A DNA stretch of 10,651 nucleotides, from the IMG/VR virus record IMGVR_UViG_2698536677_000015; one strand, given 5' to 3'. This document shows, in pieces, positions 1 through 10,651 of the stretch. The translations under genes were made by a program, and so were the position numbers. Each line of letters starts with the position of its first letter. The stretch's first letter is position 1. This DNA is from a virus (lineage: Duplodnaviria > Heunggongvirae > Uroviricota > Caudoviricetes). The notes beneath the pieces were generated by a model that saw only the letters and a program-made list of their open reading frames with translations, had not been told where the DNA came from and did no database searches.

Positions 1-1
1 A

Positions 2-1387
2 CAGGCCACTCTGGATGATAAACAGCAGAGTGCCCTGACAAAAACAGAGCGTGAGCTGGCCCTGTCCAGACTGAAAGGGGAAGAAAAAGAGCGTGCCCGG
101 CTGGGGTATGCGGCGGATGACCTTGGTTTTGTGGGGGATTCGTATCAGGAGGCGAGACAGCGTTATATCAGTAATGCTCTGGAAGCCTGGCGTAATAACG
201 AGGCGAACAAACCTAAATCCCGGGGTGGAAAATCAGAGACGGAAAAAGCGGAAGACAGTTTTTCCCGGCTACTGAAGCAGCAGAAAGAGCAACTGGCACT
301 GGCGGGTCAGAATACAGAGCTGGCGAAGCTGAAGTACCAGACTGCGCAGGGCGAACTGAAAACCCTGACGGAGATGCAGAAGCAGGAACTGCTGCGTAAC
401 GCGGCCCTGATTGACCAGCAAAAAATCCGGGAACAGTTGCGATCCCGGGAAGAGACCCTGAAGAATGATAATGTGGCTGCGCGTGCATCAAATGAAGCCG
501 AACTGCTGGGATACGGGCAGGGAGAACGAGCCAGGGAACGCATGCGGGAGTTGCAGCAGATCCGCGACAGCTTCCGCCAGAAGGATGCGGACCTTCAGTC
601 TCAGTATCAGACCGGGGATATCAGTGAGGATTTTTACAGACAGGCACGGGCACAGAACGCGCAGTATCTGAGCGAACGCCTTAAGGACCAGGCAGCCTTT
701 TATGCCGAATCGGATGCGCAGCGTGCGGACTGGCAGAAAGGCTTGCAGGAGGGGCTCAGTAACTGGTTGGATAATGCGTCCGATTACGCCTCACAGGCAG
801 CACAGCTTGCGACGGAGGGTATCTCAGGGATGGTGAATAACATCACGGAGATGCTGAACGGAAATAAAGTGGAATGGCGCAGCTGGGCCTCATCAGTGCT
901 GCAGGAAATATCAAAAGTTCTTATGAATGCCGCGATTGTCAACGGAATTAAGACGGCGGCAAACGGTATGTCCGGTGCGGGAGGATTTCTCGGCAGCATT
1001 GGTGACTGGCTGGGCGGGGCGGTGGCCAATGCAAAAGGCGGCGTGTATACCTCGGCAAACCTGAGTGCGTACAGCAACAGTATTGTGGATACGCCCACGT
1101 ACTTTGCCTTTGCAAAAGGGGCCGGGCTGATGGGGGAGGCCGGACCTGAAGCCATTATGCCCCTGACGCGGGCGGCGGATGGCTCGCTGGGTGTGCGCGC
1201 GGTGGGTAGTATGTACGGCAGTGCGGGCCTGGTGTATTCCCCGGTCTACCATATCGCCATTCAGAATGACGGGACTAATGGCCAGATAGGGCCGGAGGCG
1301 GCAGGCAGTCTTGTGCAGCTGATTGACCAGCGGGTGCAGGCGGTGATGCTGTCCATGCGACGTGACGGAGGAATGCTGAGTGGCTGA
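2..1387 (+). CDS. H: Tail tape measure protein, C-terminal portion (lambda gpH family); the 5' end lies upstream of the window
   Basis: The frame is open from position 2 with no upstream stop (the ORF track lists only the GTG-initiated part 131..1387). Gln/Glu/Arg-rich coiled-coil-like sequence is followed by a Gly-rich C-terminus (e.g. PLTRAADGSLGVRAVGS), typical of lambdoid tape measure proteins. Position immediately upstream of M-L-K-I matches lambda gene order. Stop TGA at 1385..1387. Confidence 0.85.
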   Translation, partial: QATLDDKQQSALTKTERELALSRLKGEEKERARLGYAADDLGFVGDSYQEARQRYISNALEAWRNNEANKPKSRGGKSETEKAEDSFSRLLKQQKEQLALAGQNTELAKLKYQTAQGELKTLTEMQKQELLRNAALIDQQKIREQLRSREETLKNDNVAARASNEAELLGYGQGERARERMRELQQIRDSFRQKDADLQSQYQTGDISEDFYRQARAQNAQYLSERLKDQAAFYAESDAQRADWQKGLQEGLSNWLDNASDYASQAAQLATEGISGMVNNITEMLNGNKVEWRSWASSVLQEISKVLMNAAIVNGIKTAANGMSGAGGFLGSIGDWLGGAVANAKGGVYTSANLSAYSNSIVDTPTYFAFAKGAGLMGEAGPEAIMPLTRAADGSLGVRAVGSMYGSAGLVYSPVYHIAIQNDGTNGQIGPEAAGSLVQLIDQRVQAVMLSMRRDGGMLSG

Positions 1388-1721
1388 GATAAAAACGCTG
1401 CATCTGGTCCCGCGTGAAGGGATGCAGGTGAGTGAGAAGCCGTCGGTGGTGAGGGTGCGGTTTGGTGACGGTTATGAACAGCGCCGCCCCACAGGGCTGA
1501 ATCCTCAACTGAAGACGTTTCAGGCGGTGTTCCGGGTGACGGATGAGTCAACCCGGCGCTGGCTGGAAGAGTTTTTATCGTGGCATGGTGGTTACCGTGC
1601 CTTTTTGTGGCGACCGCCGAAACATAACCGGACGGTGAGGGTTGTGTGCCGTGAGTGGAGTGTCACGGATAATGCCCGGTACAGTGATTTCAGTTGCACG
1701 ATAGAGCAGGTGGTGAACTGA
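1380..1721 (+). CDS. M: Minor tail protein M (lambda gpM family)
   Basis: 113-aa ORF with the motifs VRFGDGYEQR and a C-terminal EQVVN, recognisable as lambda gpM. GTG start at 1380 overlaps the H stop by 8 nt, with GGAGGA 7 nt upstream. Stop TGA 1719..1721 overlaps the L start (ATGA). Confidence 0.85.
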   Translation: MAEIKTLHLVPREGMQVSEKPSVVRVRFGDGYEQRRPTGLNPQLKTFQAVFRVTDESTRRWLEEFLSWHGGYRAFLWRPPKHNRTVRVVCREWSVTDNARYSDFSCTIEQVVN

Positions 1722-2419
1722 TGCAGGATATTCACGAAGAAAGCCTGAACGAGTCGGTTAAGTCAGAGCAGTCACCGCGTGTGGTACTCTGGGAAATCGA
1801 CCTGACGGTGCAGGGCGGTGAGCGCTATTTTTTCTGCAATGAACTGAATGAAAAAGGGGAGCCGGTCACCTGGCAGGGGCGTGAATATCAGGCGTACCCG
1901 ATTGACGGCAGCGGCTTTGAGATGAACGGGAAGGGCAGCAGTGCCAGACCGTCGCTGACGGTGTCCAATCTGTTTGGCCTTGTCACCGGAATGGCGGAGG
2001 ACCTGCAGAGCCTGGTGGGGGCCACGGTGGTCCGCCGCCGGGTGTATGCCCGTTTTCTGGATGCGGTGAATTTTGTGGCGGGCAATCCGGAAGCGGACCC
2101 GGAGCAGGAGCTGAGCGACCGCTGGGTGGTGGAGCAGATGTCAGAGCTGACGGCCATGACAGCCTCGTTTGTGCTGGCAACACCGACGGAGACGGACGGA
2201 GCGCTGTTTCCCGGTCGCATTATGCTGGCGAATACCTGTATGTGGGATTACCGGGGAGATGAATGCGGGTATAACGGTCCTGCGGTGGCGGATGAGTTCG
2301 ACAACCCCACCACGGATATCCGTAAGGACAGATGCAGCAAGTGCATGCGTGGGTGTGAACTGCGCAGGAATGTCGGCAATTTTGGCGGTTTCCTTTCCAT
2401 TAATAAACTTTCGCAGTAA
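1721..2419 (+). CDS. L: Minor tail protein L (lambda gpL family), with a Cys-rich C-terminal domain
   Basis: ATG at 1721 (MQDIHEESLNE...). Strong similarity to lambda gpL throughout (VVLWEIDL, GERYFFCNE, GEPVTWQGREYQ). C-terminal CxnC...CxxCxxxC cysteine cluster and terminal GNFGGFLSINKLSQ. The track ORF 1694..2419 begins at an upstream in-frame Met; 1721 is preferred because of the ATGA coupling with M and the lambda-like N-terminus. Confidence 0.85.
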   Translation: MQDIHEESLNESVKSEQSPRVVLWEIDLTVQGGERYFFCNELNEKGEPVTWQGREYQAYPIDGSGFEMNGKGSSARPSLTVSNLFGLVTGMAEDLQSLVGATVVRRRVYARFLDAVNFVAGNPEADPEQELSDRWVVEQMSELTAMTASFVLATPTETDGALFPGRIMLANTCMWDYRGDECGYNGPAVADEFDNPTTDIRKDRCSKCMRGCELRRNVGNFGGFLSINKLSQ

Positions 2420-2429
2420 ATCCCGGTTT

Positions 2430-3173
2430 ATGACACAGACTGAATCAGCGATTCTGGCACATGCCCGGCGGTGTGCGCCTGCGGAGTCGTGCGGCTTCGT
2501 GATAAGCACGCCGGAGGGGGAGCGGTATATCCCTTGTGTGAATATTTCCGCAGAGCCGGAGGCGTATTTTCGTATCGCACCGGAAGACTGGCTGCGGGCA
2601 GAGATGCAGGGGGAGATTGTGGCACTGGTCCACAGTCATCCCGGTGGGCTGCCCTGGCTGAGCGAGGCTGACCGGCGGCTGCAGATAAAAAGCGCACTGC
2701 CCTGGTGGCTGGTCTGCCGGGGTGACATTCACAAATTCCGCTGTGTGCCACATCTGACAGGACGGCGCTTTGAGCACGGGGTGACGGACTGTTACACGCT
2801 GTTCCGGGATGCCTACCATCTGGCGGGAATTGATATGCCGGATTTTGAGCGTGAGGATGACTGGTGGCGTAACGGTCAGAACCTTTACCTGGACAATATG
2901 GCGGTCACCGGCTTTTACCGGGTGCCCCTGTCCTCTGCACAGGCGGGCGATATCCTGCTGTGCTGCTTTGGCGCATCGGTGGCCAATCATGCCGCCATAT
3001 ACTGCGGCAACGGTGAGCTGCTTCACCATCTGCCTGAACAACTGAGTAAACGGGAGAGGTATTCCGAAAAATGGCAACGACGAACGCATTCAGCCTGGCG
3101 TCACCGCCACTGGCACGCATCTGCCTTCACGGGGATTTGCAACGATTTGGCCGCCGCCTCAGCCTGTATGTGA
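2430..3173 (+). CDS. K: Tail assembly protein K, copy 1 (N-terminal JAB/MPN-type metalloprotease motif plus C-terminal NlpC/P60-like domain)
   Basis: 247-aa product (MTQTESAILAHARRC...). JAMM-like motif E19-SCGF ... H68-S-H70-x7-S78-x2-D81 (EIVALVHSHPGGLPWLSEAD). C-terminal Cys/His region (GVTDCY ... NHAAIYCG) typical of NlpC/P60. The track ORF 2169..3173 is the same frame extended back into L; ATG 2430 lies 10 nt after the L stop. Confidence 0.85.
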   Translation: MTQTESAILAHARRCAPAESCGFVISTPEGERYIPCVNISAEPEAYFRIAPEDWLRAEMQGEIVALVHSHPGGLPWLSEADRRLQIKSALPWWLVCRGDIHKFRCVPHLTGRRFEHGVTDCYTLFRDAYHLAGIDMPDFEREDDWWRNGQNLYLDNMAVTGFYRVPLSSAQAGDILLCCFGASVANHAAIYCGNGELLHHLPEQLSKRERYSEKWQRRTHSAWRHRHWHASAFTGICNDLAAASACM

Positions 3174-3751
3174 ACACGGCAGCGGAAGCCATTCGCGCCC
3201 TGTCGATGCAGATGCCGGGCTTTCGCCGTCAGATGAACGAAGGCTGGTACCAGATACGTATTCGCGGTGAGGACACGGCACCGGAGGCGGTGTACGCCCG
3301 TCTTCACGAACAGCTGGGTGAGGGGGCGGTCATCCATATTGTGCCGCGACTGGCCGGGGCCGGAAAGGGTGGACTGCAGATTGTGCTGGGGGCGGCAGCC
3401 ATCGTGGGCTCTTTCTTCACTGCCGGGGCATCAATGGCGTTATGGGGTTCAGCCCTGGCAGCCGGTGGTTTTTCTGCCACCACGATGCTGTTTTCACTGG
3501 GGGCCAGCATGATACTGGGTGGTGTGGCACAGATGCTTGCCCCGAAGCCAAAAACACCGGAATACAGGGCAACGGATAACGGCAGACAGAACACGTACTT
3601 TTCCTCGCTGGATAACATGATTGCCCAGGGGAACCCGATGCCGGTGCCTTACGGTGAAATGCTGGTTGGCTCCCGGCGAATCTCCCAGGACATCAGTACC
3701 CGTGATGAAGGCGGTGACGGGAAGATGGTGGTTATCGGGCGGCAGGCATAA
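3071..3751 (+). CDS. I: Tail assembly protein I, copy 1 (lambda gpI family)
   Basis: 226-aa ORF (MATTNAFSLASPPLARICLHGDLQRFGRR...) with a hydrophobic Gly/Ala-rich central segment and DNGRQNTYFSSLDNM. Start is embedded in the 3' end of K in another frame (103-nt overlap), as in lambda. GGAGAGG lies upstream of the ATG. Confidence 0.85.
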   Translation: MATTNAFSLASPPLARICLHGDLQRFGRRLSLYVNTAAEAIRALSMQMPGFRRQMNEGWYQIRIRGEDTAPEAVYARLHEQLGEGAVIHIVPRLAGAGKGGLQIVLGAAAIVGSFFTAGASMALWGSALAAGGFSATTMLFSLGASMILGGVAQMLAPKPKTPEYRATDNGRQNTYFSSLDNMIAQGNPMPVPYGEMLVGSRRISQDISTRDEGGDGKMVVIGRQA

Positions 3752-3773
3752 AAGCGAAAAAATCCCGCAGTGA

Positions 3774-3988
3774 TGTTTCCCGGTCGCATCATGCTGGCGA
3801 ACACCTGTATGTGGGATTACCGGGGAGATGAATGCGGGTATAACGGTCCTGCGGTGGCGGATGAGTTCGATAAACCCACCACCGATATCCGTAAGGACAG
3901 ATGCAGCAAGTGCATGCGCGGGTGTGAGATGCGCGGCATGGTGGCTAATTTTGGCGGTTTCCTTTCCATTAACAAACTTTCGCAGTAA
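3774..3988 (+). pseudogene. Detached 3' fragment of gene L (last ~70 codons, complete Cys-cluster domain) heading repeat unit 2
   Basis: Sequence from about 3774 matches L from about 2203 onward (FPGRIMLANTCMWDYRGDECGYNGPAVADEF...INKLSQ) at roughly 95% identity. It is joined abruptly to the I-downstream sequence at 3773/3774. An in-frame GTG-ATG at 3770..3775 gives a possible 72-aa ORF. Confidence 0.7.
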
Positions 3989-3993
3989 ATCCA

Positions 3994-4737
3994 ATGACAC
4001 AGACAGAATCAGCGATTCTGGCGCATGCCCGGCGGTGTGTGCCTGCGGAGTCGTGCGGCTTCGTGGTGAGAACGCCGGAGGGGGAGCGGTATATCCCTTG
4101 TGTGAATATCTCTGCAGAGCCGGAGGCGTATTTTCGTATTGCACCGGAAGACTGGCTGCGGGCAGAGATGCAGGGGGAGATTGTGGCACTGGTCCACAGT
4201 CATCCCGGTGGTCTGCCCTGGCTGAGCGAGGCCGACCGGCGGCTGCAGATAAAAAGTGCACTGTCCTGGTGGCTGGTCTGCCGGGGGGAAATTCATAAAT
4301 TCCGCTGTGTGCCACATCTGACAGGACGGCGCTTTGAGCACGGGGTGACGGACTGTTACACGCTGTTCCGGGATGCCTGCCATCTGGCGGGAATTGATAT
4401 GCCGGATTTTGAGCGTGAGGATGACTGGTGGCGCAACGGTCAGAACCTTTACCTGGACAATATGGCGGTCACCGGCTTTTACCGGGTGCCCCTGTCCTCT
4501 GCACAGGCGGGCGATATCCTGCTGTGCTGCTTTGGTGCTTCGGTACCGAACCATGCCGCCATTTACTGCGGCAACGGTGAACTGCTTCACCATCTGCCTG
4601 AACAACTGAGTAAACGGGAGAGGTATTCCGAAAAATGGCAACGACGAACGCATTCTGTCTGGCGTCACCGCCACTGGCACGCATCTGCCTTCACGGGGAT
4701 TTGCAACGATTTGGCCGCCGCCTCAGCCTGTACGTGA
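3994..4737 (+). CDS. K: Tail assembly protein K, copy 2 (allele B)
   Basis: 247-aa ORF, about 95% identical to copy 1 with scattered substitutions (CVPAESCGFVVRT, ALSWW, RGEIH, RDACH, SVPNH, ...SACT). The L-stop to K-start spacer is 5 nt here against 10 nt in copy 1. Confidence 0.8.
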   Translation: MTQTESAILAHARRCVPAESCGFVVRTPEGERYIPCVNISAEPEAYFRIAPEDWLRAEMQGEIVALVHSHPGGLPWLSEADRRLQIKSALSWWLVCRGEIHKFRCVPHLTGRRFEHGVTDCYTLFRDACHLAGIDMPDFEREDDWWRNGQNLYLDNMAVTGFYRVPLSSAQAGDILLCCFGASVPNHAAIYCGNGELLHHLPEQLSKRERYSEKWQRRTHSVWRHRHWHASAFTGICNDLAAASACT

Positions 4738-5315
4738 ACACGGCAGCGGAAGCCATCCGTGCCCTGTCGCTGCAGGTGCCGGGATTCCGCCGCCAGATGA
4801 ACGAAGGCTGGTACCAGATACGTATTGCTGGTGAGGACACGGCACCGGAGGCGGTGTATGCCCGCCTTCACGAACAACTGGGTGAGGGGGCGGTCATCCA
4901 TATTGTGCCGCGACTGGCCGGTGCAGGGAAAGGCGGACTGCAGATTGTGCTGGGGGCGGCAGCCATCGTGGGCTCTTTCTTCACGGCCGGAGCATCGATG
5001 GCAGCCTGGGGGGCAGCGCTGAGTGCCGGCGGTTTTTCTGCCACCACGATGCTGTTTTCACTGGGTGCCAGCATGATACTGGGTGGTGTGGCACAGATGC
5101 TGGCCCCGAAGCCAAAAACACCGGAATACAGGGCAACGGATAACGGTAAACAGAACACGTACTTTTCGTCGCTGGATAACATGATTGCCCAGGGGAACCC
5201 GATGCCGGTGCCTTACGGTGAAATGCTGGTTGGCTCCCGGCGAATCTCCCAGGACATCAGCACCCGTGATGAAGGCGGGGGCGGAACGGTCGTGGTTATC
5301 GGGCGACAGGGATAA
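4635..5315 (+). CDS. I: Tail assembly protein I, copy 2 (allele B)
   Basis: 226-aa ORF, near-identical to copy 1 with substitutions across the length (FCLASP, SLQVPGF, IRIAGED, AAWGAALSAGG, ...GGGGTVVVIGRQG). Confidence 0.8.
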   Translation: MATTNAFCLASPPLARICLHGDLQRFGRRLSLYVNTAAEAIRALSLQVPGFRRQMNEGWYQIRIAGEDTAPEAVYARLHEQLGEGAVIHIVPRLAGAGKGGLQIVLGAAAIVGSFFTAGASMAAWGAALSAGGFSATTMLFSLGASMILGGVAQMLAPKPKTPEYRATDNGKQNTYFSSLDNMIAQGNPMPVPYGEMLVGSRRISQDISTRDEGGGGTVVVIGRQG

Positions 5316-5320
5316 AACAT

Positions 5321-5354
5321 AAAAAAATCCCGCAGTGATCGCGGAGCTGCGGGG
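5321..5354 (-). terminator. Candidate intrinsic terminator for leftward transcription (hairpin with a T-tract on the minus strand)
   Basis: Plus strand reads AAAAAAA-TCCCGCAG-(11-nt loop)-CTGCGGGG. On the minus strand this is a GC-rich stem-loop followed by TTTTTTT. No convincing minus-strand gene lies upstream of it in this copy. Confidence 0.4.
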
Positions 5355-5538
5355 ACAGACAAATGAAGATCAATGTTAAGGAGTTGTTTTTGTTACTCGG
5401 GCAAAAAAACACTAACGCAGCGAAATTATAAGCGCCACAGTCAGTGTGTGAAAATGTGAAGATATTCAGAATTTTTATGCCATTACCGGTTTTAACCAAC
5501 AGGATTATCGGTGGGCATGAAAGAAAACCCCGGTATCA

Positions 5539-5673
5539 GTGGCGGATGAGTTCGATAAACCCACCACCGATATCCGTAAGGACAGATGCAGCAAGTGCAT
5601 GCGCGGGTGTGAGATGCGCGGCATGGTGGCTAATTTTGGCGGTTTCCTTTCCATTAACAAACTTTCGCAGTAA
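5539..5673 (+). pseudogene. Shorter detached 3' fragment of gene L (last ~44 codons) heading repeat unit 3
   Basis: From 5539 the sequence matches the L 3' end (VADEFDKPTTDIRKDRCSKCMRGC...INKLSQ). The first two cysteines of the cluster are missing. It is joined to spacer sequence at 5537..5539. Confidence 0.65.
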
Positions 5674-5678
5674 ATCCA

Positions 5679-6422
5679 ATGACACAGACAGAATCAGCGA
5701 TTCTGGCGCATGCCCGGCGGTGTGTGCCTGCGGAGTCGTGCGGCTTCGTGGTGAGAACGCCGGAGGGGGAGCGGTATATCCCTTGTGTGAATATCTCTGC
5801 AGAGCCGGAGGCGTATTTTCGTATTGCACCGGAAGACTGGCTGCGGGCAGAGATGCAGGGGGAGATTGTGGCACTGGTCCACAGTCATCCCGGTGGTCTG
5901 CCCTGGCTGAGCGAGGCCGACCGGCGGCTGCAGATAAAAAGTGCACTGTCCTGGTGGCTGGTCTGCCGGGGGGAAATTCATAAATTCCGCTGTGTGCCAC
6001 ATCTGACAGGACGGCGCTTTGAGCACGGGGTGACGGACTGTTACACGCTGTTCCGGGATGCCTACCATCTGGCGGGAATTGATATGCCGGATTTTGAGCG
6101 TGAGGATGACTGGTGGCGCAACGGTCAGAACCTGTACCTGGACAATATGGAGGCGACTGGTTTTTACAGGATTTCCCTGCCTTCCGCACAGCCTGGCGAT
6201 ATCCTGCTGTGCTGCTTTGGCGCATCGGTGGCCAATCATGCCGCCATATACTGCGGCAACGGTGAGCTGCTTCACCATCTGCCTGAACAACTGAGTAAAC
6301 GGGAGAGGTATTCCGAAAAATGGCAACGACGAACGCATTCAGCCTGGCGTCACCGCCACTGGCACGTATCTGCCTTCACGGGGATTTACAACGATTTGGC
6401 CGCCGCCTCAGCCTGTATGTGA
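5679..6422 (+). CDS. K: Tail assembly protein K, copy 3 (mosaic allele)
   Basis: 247-aa ORF. The 5' part is identical to copy 2, the middle carries copy-1-like residues (RDAYH, SVANH, HSAW), and a divergent patch of about 60 nt (around 6134..6190) encodes DNMEATGFYRISLPSAQPGD, present in neither other copy. Confidence 0.8.
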   Translation: MTQTESAILAHARRCVPAESCGFVVRTPEGERYIPCVNISAEPEAYFRIAPEDWLRAEMQGEIVALVHSHPGGLPWLSEADRRLQIKSALSWWLVCRGEIHKFRCVPHLTGRRFEHGVTDCYTLFRDAYHLAGIDMPDFEREDDWWRNGQNLYLDNMEATGFYRISLPSAQPGDILLCCFGASVANHAAIYCGNGELLHHLPEQLSKRERYSEKWQRRTHSAWRHRHWHVSAFTGIYNDLAAASACM

Positions 6423-7321
6423 ACACGGCAGCGGAAGCCATCCGTGCCCTGTCGATGCAGATGCCGGGATTCCGCCGTCAGATGAACGAAGGCTGGTACC
6501 AGATACGTATTCGCGGTGAGGACACGGCACCGGAGGCGGTGTACGCCCGTCTTCACGAACAGCTGGGTGAGGGAACGGTCATCCACATTGTGCCGCGACT
6601 GGCCGGGGCCGGAAAGGGTGGACTGCAGATTGTGCTGGGGGCGGCAGCCATCGTGGGCTCTTTCTTCACTGCCGGGGCATCAATGGCGTTATGGGGTTCA
6701 GCCCTGGCAGCCGGTGGTTTTTCTGCCACCACGATGCTGTTTTCTCTGGGGGCCAGCATGATTCTGGGTGGTGTGGCTCAGATGCTGGCCCCGAAGGCTA
6801 AAGTACCGGAGTACAAAAGCACGGATAACGGCAGACAGAACACGTATTTTTCGTCACTGGACAACATGATTGCCCAGGGAAAATTCCGCTGTGTGCCACA
6901 TCTGACAGGACGGCGCTTTGAGCACGGGGTGACGGACTGTTACACGCTGTTCCGGGATGCCTGCCATCTGGCGGGAATTGATATGCCGGATTTTGAGCGT
7001 GAGGATGACTGGTGGCGCAACGGTCAGAACCTTTACCTGGACAATATGGCGGTCACCGGCTTTTACCGGGTGCCCCTGTCCTCTGCACAGGCGGGCGATA
7101 TCCTGCTGTGCTGCTTTGGTGCTTCGGTACCGAACCATGCCGCCATTTACTGCGGCAACGGTGAACTGCTTCACCATCTGCCTGAACAACTGAGTAAACG
7201 GGAGAGGTATTCCGAAAAATGGCAACGACGAACGCATTCTGTCTGGCGTCACCGCCACTGGCACGCATCTGCCTTCACGGGGATTTGCAACGATTTGGCC
7301 GCCGCCTCAGCCTGTACGTGA
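6320..7321 (+). CDS. In-frame I-K fusion ORF: I residues 1-187 joined to K residues 102-247 (NlpC/P60-like half only)
   Basis: 333-aa ORF. The N-terminal part is I sequence up to ...SLDNMIAQG (codon 187 ends at 6880). It then continues directly as K from KFRCVPHLTGRRFEHG... in the copy-2 (allele B) version through to the K stop. Junction is at about 6879..6883. Confidence 0.7.
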   Translation: MATTNAFSLASPPLARICLHGDLQRFGRRLSLYVNTAAEAIRALSMQMPGFRRQMNEGWYQIRIRGEDTAPEAVYARLHEQLGEGTVIHIVPRLAGAGKGGLQIVLGAAAIVGSFFTAGASMALWGSALAAGGFSATTMLFSLGASMILGGVAQMLAPKAKVPEYKSTDNGRQNTYFSSLDNMIAQGKFRCVPHLTGRRFEHGVTDCYTLFRDACHLAGIDMPDFEREDDWWRNGQNLYLDNMAVTGFYRVPLSSAQAGDILLCCFGASVPNHAAIYCGNGELLHHLPEQLSKRERYSEKWQRRTHSVWRHRHWHASAFTGICNDLAAASACT

Positions 7322-7899
7322 ACACGGCAGCGGAAGCCATCCGTGCCCTGTCGCTGCAGGTGCCGGGATTCCGCCGCCAGATGAACGAAGGCTGGTACCA
7401 GATACGTATTGCTGGTGAGGACACGGCACCGGAGGCGGTGTATGCCCGCCTTCACGAACAACTGGGTGAGGGGGCGGTCATCCATATTGTGCCGCGACTG
7501 GCCGGTGCAGGGAAAGGCGGACTGCAGATTGTGCTGGGGGCGGCAGCCATCGTGGGCTCTTTCTTCACGGCCGGAGCATCGATGGCAGCCTGGGGGGCAG
7601 CGCTGAGTGCCGGCGGTTTTTCTGCCACCACGATGCTGTTTTCACTGGGTGCCAGCATGATACTGGGTGGTGTGGCACAGATGCTGGCCCCGAAGCCAAA
7701 AACACCGGAATACAGGGCAACGGATAACGGTAAACAGAACACGTACTTTTCGTCGCTGGATAACATGATTGCCCAGGGGAACCCGATGCCGGTGCCTTAC
7801 GGTGAAATGCTGGTTGGCTCCCGGCGAATCTCCCAGGACATCAGCACCCGTGATGAAGGCGGGGGCGGAACGGTCGTGGTTATCGGGCGACAGGGATAA
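7219..7899 (+). CDS. I: Tail assembly protein I, copy 4 (identical in protein sequence to copy 2)
   Basis: 226-aa ORF with the same translation as 4635..5315. It starts inside the K-derived part of the fusion ORF in the usual K/I overlap arrangement. Confidence 0.8.
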   Translation: MATTNAFCLASPPLARICLHGDLQRFGRRLSLYVNTAAEAIRALSLQVPGFRRQMNEGWYQIRIAGEDTAPEAVYARLHEQLGEGAVIHIVPRLAGAGKGGLQIVLGAAAIVGSFFTAGASMAAWGAALSAGGFSATTMLFSLGASMILGGVAQMLAPKPKTPEYRATDNGKQNTYFSSLDNMIAQGNPMPVPYGEMLVGSRRISQDISTRDEGGGGTVVVIGRQG

Positions 7900-7904
7900 A
7901 ACAT

Positions 7905-7938
7905 AAAAAAATCCCGCAGTGATCGCGGAGCTGCGGGG
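7905..7938 (-). terminator. Second copy of the candidate minus-strand hairpin/T-tract terminator
   Basis: Same sequence as 5321..5354, at an offset of 2584 bp. Confidence 0.4.
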
Positions 7939-8103
7939 ACAGACAAATGAAGATCAATGTTAAGGAGTTGTTTTTGTTACTCGGGCAAAAAAACACTAAC
8001 GCAGCGAAATTATAAGCGCCACAGTCAGTGTGTGAAAATGTGAAGATATTCAGAATTTTTATGCCATTACCGGTTTTAACCAACAGGATTATCGGTGGGC
8101 ATG

Positions 8104-8144
8104 AAAGAAAACCCCGGTATCTGCTGATACCGGGGGTTCTCTTT
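8104..8144. terminator. Perfect 10-bp inverted repeat hairpin with T/A-rich flanks; candidate bidirectional terminator
   Basis: CCCCGGTATC-TGCT-GATACCGGGG at 8112..8135, followed by GTTCTCTTT on the plus strand and preceded by AAAGAAAA (a T-rich run on the minus strand). Confidence 0.45.
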
Positions 8145-8241
8145 AGCATGGCAGAAATGTGTTTCATGCTTTTCGGGCGAAGGATATCCGACTTCTGTAC
8201 GGAATGGCAAGTGGCGGTTAATTTATTCAGGGGAAGGCTGT

Positions 8242-8263
8242 ATGGGAAAAGGTGGCGGTAAGA
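8242..8263 (+). other. 22-bp remnant of a J-gene start (ATGGGAAAAGGTGGCGGTAAGA, encoding MGKGGGK) with its own upstream purine-rich RBS-like sequence
   Basis: Closely matches the true J start at 10317 (ATGGGCAAAGGTGGCGGC..., MGKGGGR). It is preceded by AGGGGAAGG and joined at 8263/8264 to internal K sequence. The ATG is out of frame with the K fragment and would give only about 49 codons. Confidence 0.5.
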
Positions 8264-8887
8264 GCAGAGCCGGAGGCGTATTTTCGTATCGCACCGGAAG
8301 ACTGGCTGCGGGCAGAGATGCAGGGGGAGATTGTGGCACTGGTCCACAGTCATCCCGGTGGGCTGCCCTGGCTGAGCGAGGCTGACCGGCGGCTGCAGAT
8401 AAAAAGCGCACTGCCCTGGTGGCTGGTCTGCCGGGGTGACATTCACAAATTCCGCTGTGTGCCACATCTGACAGGACGGCGCTTTGAGCACGGGGTGACG
8501 GACTGTTACACGCTGTTCCGGGATGCCTACCATCTGGCGGGAATTGATATGCCGGATTTTGAGCGTGAGGATGACTGGTGGCGTAACGGTCAGAACCTTT
8601 ACCTGGACAATATGGCGGTCACCGGCTTTTACCGGGTGCCCCTGTCCTCTGCACAGGCGGGCGATATCCTGCTGTGCTGCTTTGGCGCATCGGTGGCCAA
8701 TCATGCCGCCATATACTGCGGCAACGGTGAGCTGCTTCACCATCTGCCTGAACAACTGAGTAAACGGGAGAGGTATTCCGAAAAATGGCAACGACGAACG
8801 CATTCAGCCTGGCGTCACCGCCACTGGCACGCATCTGCCTTCACGGGGATTTGCAACGATTTGGCCGCCGCCTCAGCCTGTATGTGA
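8264..8887 (+). pseudogene. 5'-truncated K gene (codons 1-40 missing), copy-1 allele
   Basis: From 8264 the sequence aligns with K copy 1 from nt 121 onward, and the translation from AEPEAYFRIAPEDWL... is identical to copy 1. The region containing the conserved ESCGF glutamate is absent. An in-frame GTG at 8252 could initiate a 211-aa truncated product (track ORF 8252..8887). Confidence 0.7.
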
Positions 8888-9465
8888 ACACGGCAGCGGA
8901 AGCCATTCGCGCCCTGTCGATGCAGATGCCGGGCTTTCGCCGTCAGATGAACGAAGGCTGGTACCAGATACGTATTCGCGGTGAGGACACGGCACCGGAG
9001 GCGGTGTACGCCCGTCTTCACGAACAGCTGGGTGAGGGGGCGGTCATCCATATTGTGCCGCGACTGGCCGGGGCCGGAAAGGGTGGACTGCAGATTGTGC
9101 TGGGGGCGGCAGCCATCGTGGGCTCTTTCTTCACTGCCGGGGCATCAATGGCGTTATGGGGTTCAGCCCTGGCAGCCGGTGGTTTTTCTGCCACCACGAT
9201 GCTGTTTTCTCTGGGGGCCAGCATGATTCTGGGTGGTGTGGCTCAGATGCTGGCCCCGAAGGCTAAAGTACCGGAGTACAAAAGCACGGATAACGGCAGA
9301 CAGAACACGTATTTTTCGTCACTGGACAACATGATTGCCCAGGGTAACCCGATGCCGGTGCCTTACGGGGAAATGCTGGTTGGCTCCCGCCGTATATCCC
9401 AGGACATCAGTACCCGTGATGAAGGCGGGGGCGGAAAGGTCGTGGTTATCGGGCGGCAGGCATAA
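8785..9465 (+). CDS. I: Tail assembly protein I, copy 5 (allele C)
   Basis: 226-aa ORF. Mostly like copy 1, but with APKAKVPEYKST in place of APKPKTPEYRAT and GGGGKVVVIGRQA at the C-terminus. The same KAKVPEYKST variant is found in the I part of the fusion ORF. Confidence 0.8.
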   Translation: MATTNAFSLASPPLARICLHGDLQRFGRRLSLYVNTAAEAIRALSMQMPGFRRQMNEGWYQIRIRGEDTAPEAVYARLHEQLGEGAVIHIVPRLAGAGKGGLQIVLGAAAIVGSFFTAGASMALWGSALAAGGFSATTMLFSLGASMILGGVAQMLAPKAKVPEYKSTDNGRQNTYFSSLDNMIAQGNPMPVPYGEMLVGSRRISQDISTRDEGGGGKVVVIGRQA

Positions 9466-9470
9466 AAGCG

Positions 9471-9507
9471 AAAAAATCCCGCAGTGCTCACGGACAGGAA
9501 CTGCGGG
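9471..9507 (-). terminator. Candidate minus-strand hairpin/T-tract terminator downstream of I copy 5
   Basis: AAAAAA-CCCGCAG-(16-nt loop)-CTGCGGG on the plus strand. The stem arms are the same as in the 5321 and 7905 copies but the loop differs, and the loop is long, so this is a weak call. Confidence 0.3.
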
Positions 9508-9620
9508 AGCGTTACGAAGATTGAGTGTAAGGAATTATTCTTATGTCACGACAAAAACATTAACTCAGAGAGGGAGGATGTGCCGTTCTTTTCAGGGAGA
9601 AAGGATTTATCGTCCTGAGG

Positions 9621-9649
9621 AATAAAGGTAAGGGGCCCGCCCCTTACCT
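9621..9649 (-). terminator. Candidate intrinsic terminator of sodC
   Basis: Perfect 10-bp stem AGGTAAGGGG / CCCCTTACCT with a 4-nt loop at 9626..9649, six nt beyond the sodC stop, followed on the minus strand by TTTATT. No T-tract follows on the plus strand, so it is probably unidirectional. Confidence 0.5.
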
Positions 9650-9655
9650 GACTGA

Positions 9656-10183
9656 TTATTGAATGATGCCGCAGGCCATTCTCGCACCACCACCGCCCAG
9701 GGGCTCCGGATGGTCATGATGGTTATCACCGCCAGCATGAAGCATGAGAGAACGCCCTTTAATCTCTTTTAATGAGTTCAGTCTCGGGGCCAGGACCGGG
9801 TAGTTCGCTTTTCCGTCATGCGTCACGAACAGCGCAGGGAGGTCGCCCAGGTGTCCATCCGGAGACCAGGGGCCAAGATGTTTGCCGGTGTTTTTCGGGT
9901 CAAAGTGACCGCCAGCCGATAATGCTGCGACCGGTTTTCCGTCTTTCAGTGCCGGGGCGCAATTTCCTTTTTCGTGCACATGAAAACCATGAATGCCTTC
10001 AGACAGAGAGTGAAGGGCTGGTGTGAACAGCAGACCGTAGGGGGTCTCCTGAATGGTTATTTTTCCAATGCTGACTTCTTTTCCGTCAGCACTGACAAGG
10101 TTCATTGGGACTTCCTGTTCTGCTGCGTATCCGCATGATGCTGCTGTCAGCATGGCAATGGCAGCAATGATTTTACATTTCAT
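9656..10183 (-). CDS. sodC: Periplasmic Cu/Zn superoxide dismutase (SodC family), a prophage cargo (moron) gene
   Basis: 175-aa product with an N-terminal signal peptide ([20 protein letters not shown]). Hallmark Cu/Zn-SOD motifs are present: [70 protein letters not shown] sits 5-6 nt upstream of the ATG at 10183..10181. The track ORF 9656..10642 is the same frame extended upstream antisense to J. Confidence 0.85.
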
Positions 10184-10316
10184 AAAACCCTCATTAATTC
10201 CGTTAACAGACTGAGCTTGCTGGTTACAGGGTAACAAACAGCGTTCTGATGATATCGCGCAATAGCTGTGCAATATCCTATCACTGCGATTAATAATACC
10301 AATTGAGAGGAACATT
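10184..10316. promoter_or_regulatory. Divergent intergenic region between sodC (leftward) and J (rightward); presumed site of the sodC promoter and the J ribosome-binding site
   Basis: 133 bp of AT-rich noncoding sequence between two divergently oriented start codons. GAGAGGA lies 7 nt upstream of the J ATG. No -35/-10 pair could be assigned with confidence by eye. Confidence 0.3.
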
Positions 10317-10651
10317 ATGGGCAAAGGTGGCGGCAGGGCGCACACGCCTCGAGAGGCGAAGGATAATCTCAAATCCACGCAGATGATGAGTGTGATTGAT
10401 GCGATTGGTGAGGGACCGATAGAAGGCCCGGTGAAGGGGCTGCAGAGTATCCTGGTGAACAAAACCCCGCTGACGGACACGGACGGCAATCCTGTGATAC
10501 ACGGTGTGACCGCGGTCTGGCGCGCCGGGGAGCAGGAGCAGACACCACCGGAAGGCTTTGAGTCCTCCGGAGCTGAAACCGGACTGGGCGTGGAAGTGAC
10601 GAAGGCAAAGCCGGTAACGCGCACCATTACATCCGCGAACATTGACCGCCT
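10317..10651 (+). CDS. J: Tail tip / host-specificity protein J, N-terminal 111 codons (continues beyond the window)
   Basis: Open frame from ATG 10317 to the window end ([39 protein letters not shown]...[17 protein letters not shown]...[12 protein letters not shown]). This is a very close match to the lambda gpJ N-terminus. It is absent from the ORF track because no stop is reached. Confidence 0.85.

What the first reader, a model, noticed from the sequence alone, without database searches (positions are those of the whole stretch)
2430..3751. K-I pair has the architecture of a protease plus small-partner module, and the array multiplies and scrambles it
K combines a JAB/MPN-type metalloprotease motif (HSHx7Sx2D with an upstream ESCGF glutamate) and an NlpC/P60-type Cys/His region. 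Comparative-genomics work, as I recall it, has proposed that gpI has a ubiquitin-like beta-grasp domain that partners with such a protease. In this window the pair occurs in variants that could test that idea: K with both domains (three alleles), K lacking the N-terminal segment that holds the presumed catalytic glutamate, and I fused directly to the K NlpC/P60-like half. Whether any of these are functional or merely tolerated is unknown.
Basis: partly seen in the sequence, partly recalled or inferred. Interest (0 to 1): 0.5.

Follow-up and report, generated by a model that had tools for sequence, protein, structure and literature searches.

The report
Ordinary K-I genes; array is scaffolding artefact
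The K and I genes are the ordinary, already-described lambda-type tail-tip assembly pair (a two-domain peptidase next to a protein with a ubiquitin-like domain), and the "array" of scrambled extra copies is five separate assembly contigs stitched together across unsequenced gaps, so it is not a real genomic structure.

Summary
The window is the whole of draft contig CYFX01000082.1 (E. coli, GCA_001285605.1). The deposited record has exactly four N bases, at 3773, 5538, 6880 and 8263. The window differs from the record only there (N shown as A), and these are the four "joints" of the array. The array is therefore five contigs chained by a scaffolder. Each contig is 99-100% identical to ordinary single-copy H-M-L-K-I-(sodC)-J prophage loci elsewhere. 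None of the four joints occurs in 5,426 complete E. coli genomes. The "I::K fusion" is an ORF read across the N at 6880 and is a singleton among about 15 billion proteins. The "N-truncated K" is a contig-start fragment placed after seven codons of J.

The real part, K1-I1 (2430-3751), is confirmed. K has Prok-JAB plus NlpC/P60 domains with intact motifs. I is about 75% identical to lambda gpI, and its N-terminal domain models as a ThiS/MoaD-like beta-grasp. This architecture, and the idea that K processes I, was published in 2006 (PMC1779556). The window offers no natural variants to test it. Low interest.

The parts
1..3772 (+). Contig unit U1: 3' part of tape-measure gene H (1-1387), M (1380-1721), L (1721-2419), K1 (2430-3173), I1 (3071-3751) and 21 nt downstream
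   Evidence: 100% identical over 3,772 bp to the natural single-copy locus L029. Five natural matches all stop at 3772 and then continue CTCACGG.... Pfam assignments.
2430..3173 (+). K1: tail-tip assembly protein K, with an N-terminal JAB/MPN metallopeptidase domain (residues 3-105) and a C-terminal NlpC/P60 cysteine peptidase domain (111-224)
   Evidence: Pfam PF14464 E 4.3e-16 and PF00877 E 3.3e-13. Motifs E19, H68-x-H70-x7-S78-x2-D81, C121 and H187. The His aligns with the His of a solved cell-wall hydrolase, 9ubf.
3071..3751 (+). I1: tail-tip assembly protein I (226 aa). It starts 103 nt inside K in another frame. It has a ubiquitin-like beta-grasp (about 12-94), a Gly-rich hydrophobic linker, and the C-terminal plug domain found in virions.
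   Evidence: Lambda gpI in PDB 8iyk, E 2.7e-94, aligned from residue 1. PF06805. AF2 model with pLDDT about 70-77 for residues 12-94. All top 50 Foldseek hits are CysO, SAMP1, MoaD, ThiS or ubiquitin.
3773..3773 (.). Scaffold gap 1 (N in the record, A in the window)
3774..5537 (+). Contig unit U2: L 3' fragment (to 3988), K2 (3994-4737), I2 (4635-5315), and an I-J spacer that ends after the left arm of a terminator-like hairpin
   Evidence: 100% identical over 1,764 bp to six natural single-copy loci (L003, L015, L017-L020), all arranged H-M-L-K-I-J.
5538..5538 (.). Scaffold gap 2 (N in the record)
5539..6879 (+). Contig unit U3: L 3' fragment (to 5673), K3 (5679-6422), and the first 186 codons plus 2 nt of an I gene (6320-6879)
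   Evidence: 100% identical over 1,341 bp to canonical L-K-I loci in three complete genomes, H61-H63. Its first 525 nt equal U2 and its last 293 nt equal U5.
6880..6880 (.). Scaffold gap 3 (N in the record). It lies in codon 187 of the apparent I::K fusion ORF 6320-7321.
   Evidence: The fusion product CTZ81428.1 is a singleton cluster on this one contig.
6881..8262 (+). Contig unit U4: K 3' fragment (NlpC/P60 half, to 7321), I4 (7219-7899, identical to I2), the full I-J spacer (7900-8241) and the first 7 codons of J (8242-8262)
   Evidence: Matches natural loci L003, L004 and others without mismatch up to 8262. 6881-8121 is an exact copy of 4297-5537. Sister draft assemblies carry this same piece as separate 1.3-3.8 kb contigs that start at window-equivalent positions 4282-4305.
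8263..8263 (.). Scaffold gap 4 (N in the record)
8264..10651 (+). Contig unit U5: K fragment from inside the JAB domain (to 8887), I5 (8785-9465), sodC on the minus strand (9656-10183), and the start of J (10317-10651)
   Evidence: 99.0% identical to the canonical K-I-sodC-J locus H69. Its first 946 nt equal U1 positions 2550-3495. Sod_Cu Pfam hit. Canonical order shown in L001.

Best explanation
There are two separate things here.

(1) K1-I1 (2430-3751) is an ordinary lambda-type tail-tip assembly gene pair in a lambdoid prophage of E. coli. K is a non-structural two-domain peptidase (JAB/MPN metallopeptidase plus NlpC/P60 cysteine peptidase). I has an N-terminal ThiS/MoaD-like ubiquitin-fold domain that ends in a conserved Gly-rich stretch (PRLAGAGKGG, residues 92-101). 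This is followed by a hydrophobic linker and a C-terminal domain that forms the trimeric plug inside the gpJ/gpL cone of the finished tail. The most likely mechanism is inferred and not shown: K handles or cleaves I at or after the conserved glycines during tip assembly. The ubiquitin-like domain would then act as a removable assembly or solubility module, and only the C-terminal part would stay in the virion.

(2) The 'array' after I1 is not a genomic structure. The window is a scaffold of five short-read contigs (1-3772, 3774-5537, 5539-6879, 6881-8262, 8264-10651). They derive from the near-identical tail-gene regions of at least four lambdoid prophages of one strain. A scaffolder chained them with single-N gaps, most likely because read pairs in repeats are ambiguous. 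In the window the Ns were rendered as A. This made an in-frame 'I::K fusion' and an 'N-truncated K' appear.
For: Artefact:
- The window equals contig CYFX01000082.1 over its whole length.
- The only four differences from the record are N to A at 3773, 5538, 6880 and 8263, which are exactly the four joints.
- At each joint both flanks stop matching their natural counterparts at the N.
- Each unit is 99-100% identical to canonical single-copy loci.
- No joint, and no such adjacency within about 630 bp, occurs in 5,426 complete E. coli genomes. No complete genome or phage holds the array.
- The fusion protein is a singleton among about 15 billion proteins, whereas K1, K2, K3 and the I alleles occur on 13 to 978 contigs.
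- Unit ends lie in sequence shared exactly with other units, over 45, 82, 293, 525 and 946 nt, as expected at assembly-graph branch points.
- Sister assemblies break contigs at the same places.

K-I module:
- Pfam domains and catalytic motifs.
- Full-length match to lambda gpI in solved tails.
- Beta-grasp model and fold matches, with invariant G96 and nearly invariant G101.
- The published model in PMC1779556.
- Virion structures resolve only gpI residues 134/135-223 and do not detect gpK by mass spectrometry (PMC10721106 and PMC12617516).
Against: A single N does not prove that two contigs are far apart. In principle a short real gap could hide a real novel joint. I could not inspect the reads or identify the assembly pipeline. 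For the K-I mechanism, no cleavage of gpI by gpK has been shown in any paper I could read. The missing N-terminal part of gpI in cryo-EM maps could be disordered and not removed. The gpI model is only moderately confident (pLDDT about 70-77 in the domain, mean 47.9 overall), and the Foldseek E-values are marginal (about 1e-3).
Confidence: 0.93

Rival explanations
1. The array is real. This strain carries a tandem, scrambled multiplication of L'-K-I cassettes, built by illegitimate recombination among prophages. The four Ns are tiny unsequenced gaps inside true joints.
For: The scaffolder must have had some read-pair support to order the five pieces. All pieces have the same orientation and a plausible gene order.
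Against: All four joints coincide with Ns. All four would have to be different illegitimate joints. No such adjacency exists in 5,426 complete genomes. The units are identical to alleles from separate prophages and do not look like diverged duplicates. There is an exact 1,241-bp re-use of the same sequence. The unit ends lie in exact repeats. Read pairs in 92-100% identical repeats are unreliable (established knowledge about short-read scaffolding).
Confidence: 0.04
2. The K-I pairing is not a protease-substrate module. The NlpC/P60 domain of K is a peptidoglycan endopeptidase used for cell-wall penetration, and adjacency to I merely reflects the order of tail genes.
For: NlpC/P60 proteins are typically cell-wall hydrolases. 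The only solved relative of the C-terminal half is a Tn916-like cell-wall hydrolase. RefSeq names K a 'C40 family peptidase'. PMC11101478 states that the peptidoglycan-cleaving enzyme of lambda is still unidentified.
Against: gpK was not detected in lambda virions by mass spectrometry and was not resolved in any tail map, so it is unlikely to act at entry. The JAB domain is conserved next to a ubiquitin-fold protein with a C-terminal glycine across lambdoid and T1-like phages.
Confidence: 0.15
3. The Ns mark larger real gaps, and the contig order reflects a true cluster of decayed prophage tail fragments at one chromosomal site.
For: Decayed variants do exist elsewhere: a truncated L with K-I deleted in strain E2, and an L::I fusion lacking K.
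Against: Every unit here is 99-100% identical to intact, functional-looking loci, and the K and I genes are intact except at unit ends. Fragments begin and end exactly at Ns. No comparable cluster was found in complete genomes.
Confidence: 0.03

Closest known systems
Bacteriophage lambda gpK / gpI tail-tip assembly proteins (TAPK / TAPI of Iyer, Burroughs and Aravind 2006, PMC1779556)
   Same: Same gene order (L-K-I-J). The I start overlaps K. K has JAB plus NlpC/P60. I has a Ub-like N-domain, a Gly-rich linker and a C-terminal plug domain, and aligns full-length with lambda gpI at E 2.7e-94.
   Different: Nothing substantive. These are allelic variants (K alleles 95-96% identical, I alleles 94-97% identical to one another) in E. 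coli prophages, with a sodC moron between I and J in some of them.
ThiS / MoaD / CysO / SAMP sulfur-carrier and ubiquitin-like beta-grasp proteins paired with JAB peptidases (for example CysO with the JAB peptidase Mec+, or Rpn11 with ubiquitin)
   Same: The predicted fold of I residues 12-94 matches CysO, SAMP1, MoaD and ThiS (target TM 0.66-0.74). Conserved glycines follow the last strand, and the neighbouring protein has a JAB domain with the full E...HxHx7Sx2D motif.
   Different: There is no E1-like adenylating enzyme in the tail operon. The Ub-like domain is the N-terminal part of a larger structural protein and is not a free modifier. No conjugation or sulfur transfer is implied. Cleavage is unproven.
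Mis-scaffolded repeat contigs in short-read draft assemblies (single-N joins between contigs with no measurable gap)
   Same: The window has five units from near-identical prophage regions. There is a single N at each junction. Unit ends lie in exact repeats, the same sequence is used twice, and ORFs are called through an N.
   Different: I could not identify the software used or see the read evidence. The N-to-A conversion happened downstream of the public record.

Membership tests
JAB/MPN (JAMM) metallopeptidase | Profile match to the prokaryotic JAB domain above the curated threshold | tested here: met
   PF14464 scores of 59.2, 56.5 and 56.6 bits against a cut-off of 25 for K1, K2 and K3. 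Weak sequence match to the solved JAB-like protein 2kks (E 7e-5).
JAB/MPN (JAMM) metallopeptidase | Catalytic motif E...HxHx7Sx2D | tested here: met
   E19 (AESCGF) and H68-S-H70-PGGLPWL-S78-EA-D81 are present in K1, K2 and K3.
JAB/MPN (JAMM) metallopeptidase | Zn-dependent (iso)peptidase activity | not testable with these tools
   This needs biochemistry. No report of it was found in the papers read.
NlpC/P60 (C40) papain-like peptidase | Profile match over the whole domain, with the catalytic Cys and His | tested here: met
   PF00877 positions 1-105 of 105, 46-50 bits against a cut-off of 23. C121 lies in DCYTL. H187 lies in NHAAIY and aligns with THVGIY of the solved hydrolase 9ubf.
Lambda tail assembly protein I (PF06805 / gpI) | Full-length homology to lambda gpI, including the C-terminal plug domain seen in virions | tested here: met
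   8iyk_I at E 2.7e-94, aligning residues 1-224 with 1-223. 9e7m C-terminal 90 residues at E 5e-37. PF06805.
Ubiquitin-like beta-grasp (ThiS/MoaD-like) | Beta-grasp fold of the N-terminal domain | tested here: met
   The AF2 model has strands and helices in the order E15-19, E29-32, H37-47, E59-64, E86-93 at pLDDT 67-77. All top 50 PDB matches are Ub-like proteins: CysO, SAMP1, MoaD and ThiS with probability 1.00 and target TM 0.66-0.74. The confidence is moderate and not high.
Ubiquitin-like beta-grasp (ThiS/MoaD-like) | Conserved glycine(s) at the C-terminal end of the domain | tested here: met
   G96 is invariant, and A97 and G101 are nearly invariant, in 25 homologues of 63-95% identity. 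The sampled diversity is limited.
Ubiquitin-like beta-grasp (ThiS/MoaD-like) | Release or processing at that glycine by the partner JAB peptidase | not testable with these tools
   Only indirect support: virion maps show gpI from residue 134/135 onward and no gpK.
Genuine tandem gene array | Contiguous sequenced DNA across the joints between units | tested here: not met
   All four joints are N in the deposited record.
Genuine tandem gene array | The same joints or adjacency found in independent genomes or assemblies | tested here: not met
   Zero of 5,426 complete genomes have any of the four adjacencies. The fusion protein is a singleton. Every other context of K1, K2, I1 and I2 is single copy.

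The most novel reading that the evidence does not exclude
The scaffolder's ordering is correct, and this isolate really carries several K-I cassettes from different prophage lineages packed head-to-tail at one site, with the true recombination joints hidden in the four gaps. In that case naturally truncated and fused K/I variants might exist there.
Probability: 0.03. Interest if true: 0.45.

Novelty: already known. Interest (0 to 1): 0.06.

Why it matters
It matters mainly as a caution. Single-N scaffold joins that are silently converted to a base create convincing-looking gene fusions, truncations and 'arrays' in repeat-rich prophage regions. One such product (CTZ81428.1, a 300-aa 'tail assembly protein') is already in public protein databases. 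The underlying biological question is whether gpK's JAB/NlpC-P60 peptidases process the ubiquitin-like domain of gpI during lambda tail-tip assembly. That question is real and still open (gpK's role is called unknown in the 2023-2026 structural papers), but this window adds nothing new towards testing it.

Tried and rejected
1. H41 (strain E2) seemed to span joint J1. On inspection it is a different, non-colinear event: L is truncated and K-I are deleted.
2. H51 covered 93% of the J3 query, but as two pieces 865 bp apart at 89% identity. That is the normal K-then-I order and not the joint.
3. P0079 looked like an I::L fusion that could indicate real L-K-I tandem repeats. It is an L::I fusion with K deleted, in the normal H-M-[L::I]-sodC-J order.
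4. Before seeing the record, I read the orphan 'A' at each joint as a possible one-base filler from illegitimate recombination. The record shows these bases are Ns.
5. I tried to identify the source project and assembly pipeline from the literature. A Sanger aEPEC data set assembled with Velvet is a plausible source (PMC5343136), but I could not link the accession to it, so I make no claim.
6. Exact look-ups of the 333-aa fusion ORF, the 211-aa truncated K, the 72-aa L fragment and the minus-strand ORF across J4 found nothing in the protein collection.
7. The sequence search of K against solved structures found no gpK structure, only weak JAB-like and NlpC/P60 relatives.

Full report
**What the window is.** ORF listing and Pfam scans show a lambdoid tail-gene block. 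It contains the 3' part of tape-measure gene H, then M, L, K (Prok-JAB plus NLPC_P60) and I (Lambda_tail_I). Further L fragments, K copies and I copies follow, and the block ends with sodC on the minus strand and the start of J. In complete E. coli genomes and in Stx and other lambdoid phages, the same DNA spans only about 5 kb in the order H-M-L-K-I-sodC-J, with a single K-I pair. An exact protein look-up showed that the window is the entire 10,651-bp contig CYFX01000082.1 of the draft assembly GCA_001285605.1.

**Anatomy of the 'array'.** Self-comparison resolves five units with four different joints, plus an exact 1,241-bp re-use of sequence (4297-5537 = 6881-8121). Each unit matches ordinary single-copy prophage loci:
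- U1 (1-3772) is 100% identical to L029.
- U2 (3774-5537) is 100% identical to six loci arranged H-M-L-K-I-J.
- U3 (5539-6879) is 100% identical to L-K-I in three complete genomes.
- U4 (6881-8262) matches natural K-I-spacer-J loci without mismatch.
- U5 (8264-10651) is 99.0% identical to a K-I-sodC-J locus.

At each joint the natural sequences stop matching exactly at one base.

**The decisive result.** In the deposited record that base is N at all four joints (3773, 5538, 6880, 8263). These four N-to-A changes are the only differences between the record and the window. The window is therefore a scaffold of five contigs joined by single-N gaps, and it is not contiguous sequence.

Supporting observations:
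- None of the four adjacencies occurs, even within about 630 bp, in 5,426 complete E. coli genomes.
- The 'I::K fusion' (CTZ81428.1) is an ORF called through the N at 6880 (codon 187). It is a singleton among about 15 billion proteins, while the intact K and I alleles are found on 13 to 978 contigs.
- The 'N-truncated K' begins one base after the N at 8263. It sits behind the first seven codons of J (MGKGGGK), which are in a different frame.
- Unit ends lie in stretches shared exactly with other units, over 45 to 946 nt, as expected at repeat-induced contig breaks.
- Sister draft assemblies carry the U4-type piece as separate 1.3-3.8 kb contigs that begin at equivalent positions.

The units represent at least four K-I alleles, which implies at least four lambdoid prophages in the strain. 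That is common in E. coli, where up to 12-21 matching places per genome were seen.

**The real K-I pair.** K1, K2 and K3 carry E19 and HSHx7Sx2D (residues 68-81), plus the NlpC/P60 Cys (DCYTL) and His (NHAAIY). The His aligns with that of a solved cell-wall hydrolase. I (226 aa, starting 103 nt inside K) aligns end-to-end with lambda gpI from solved tail structures at E 2.7e-94.

An AlphaFold2 model built on 25 homologues gives a moderately confident N-terminal domain (residues 12-94, pLDDT about 70-77). The rest of the model is unconfident. All top 50 PDB fold matches are ubiquitin-like beta-grasp proteins. CysO, SAMP1, MoaD and ThiS lead with target TM 0.66-0.74, although the E-values are only about 1e-3. 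Glycines after the last strand are conserved: G96 is invariant and G101 nearly so.

**Comparison with what is known.** All of this was published in 2006. Iyer, Burroughs and Aravind described the Ub-like domain of TAPI with its C-terminal glycine and the JAB plus NlpC/P60 domains of the neighbouring TAPK. They proposed that K processes I, and they noted occasional fused or JAB-less variants in prophages, which they suspected to be degenerate (PMC1779556).

Recent lambda structures resolve only gpI residues 134/135-223, as a trimeric plug. They do not find gpK in virions and call its role unknown (PMC10721106, PMC12617516, PMC13455828). This is compatible with the processing model but does not prove it. 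One paper even speculates about a wall-degrading role for the N-terminus of gpI (PMC11101478).

**Verdict.** The domain observation on K and I is correct but already known. The array and its 'variants', which were the reason for interest, are scaffolding artefacts made invisible by N-to-A conversion. I put about 0.93 on this reading. The residual alternative is that real joints hide inside the gaps, and only reads or a closed genome could exclude it. Interest is low.

Noticed in passing
window 3773, 5538, 6880, 8263: The window shows A where the public record has N. Ambiguous bases seem to have been replaced by A before the first-stage read. This can create false ORFs and joints in any scaffolded sequence.
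   Followed up: yes
window 6419-7321 (CTZ81428.1): A 300-aa 'putative tail assembly protein' called through a scaffold N is deposited in NCBI nr and MetaClust as a real protein. It is a singleton cluster.
   Followed up: yes
window 3071-3173, also L001 9170-9751: RefSeq/PGAP and the collection's gene caller start I after the K stop codon, giving 193 aa. Lambda gpI in PDB 8iyk (223 aa) aligns from residue 1 of the 226-aa ORF that starts 103 nt inside K. The short call would remove about 33 residues, including the first strands of the ubiquitin-like domain.
   Followed up: partly
L013 4517-5356 (E. coli E2, NZ_CP104509.1): A complete genome carries a prophage in which L is truncated and K and I are deleted. 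L' is followed directly by the I 3' end, sodC and J. This is a natural decay variant of the same locus.
   Followed up: partly
L038 8001-9185 (JAULDE010000314.1): A 394-aa L::I fusion (P0079) with K missing, in the order H-M-[L::I]-sodC-J. It is either a real K deletion or another assembly problem.
   Followed up: no
proteins P0083, P0092, P0164, P0178: Singleton proteins of 291-374 aa with NlpC/P60 followed by Lambda_tail_I, three of them on Mb-size contigs. They are probably frameshifts within the K/I overlap that fuse K to I. This may be what earlier surveys recorded as 'TAPI fused to TAPK'.
   Followed up: no
window 8110-8137 (and the half copy ending at 5537): A terminator-like hairpin, AACCCCGGTATC-TGCT-GATACCGGGGTT, sits in the I-J spacer of allele B. 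Contig U2 ends exactly after its left arm, which suggests the assembler or the reads broke at the hairpin.
   Followed up: partly
window 9656-10183 (minus strand): A Cu/Zn superoxide dismutase gene (sodC) is inserted as a moron between I and J on the opposite strand, as in many Stx and other lambdoid prophages. The 328-aa ORF listed at 9656-10642 is an over-extension of the 175-aa gene.
   Followed up: partly
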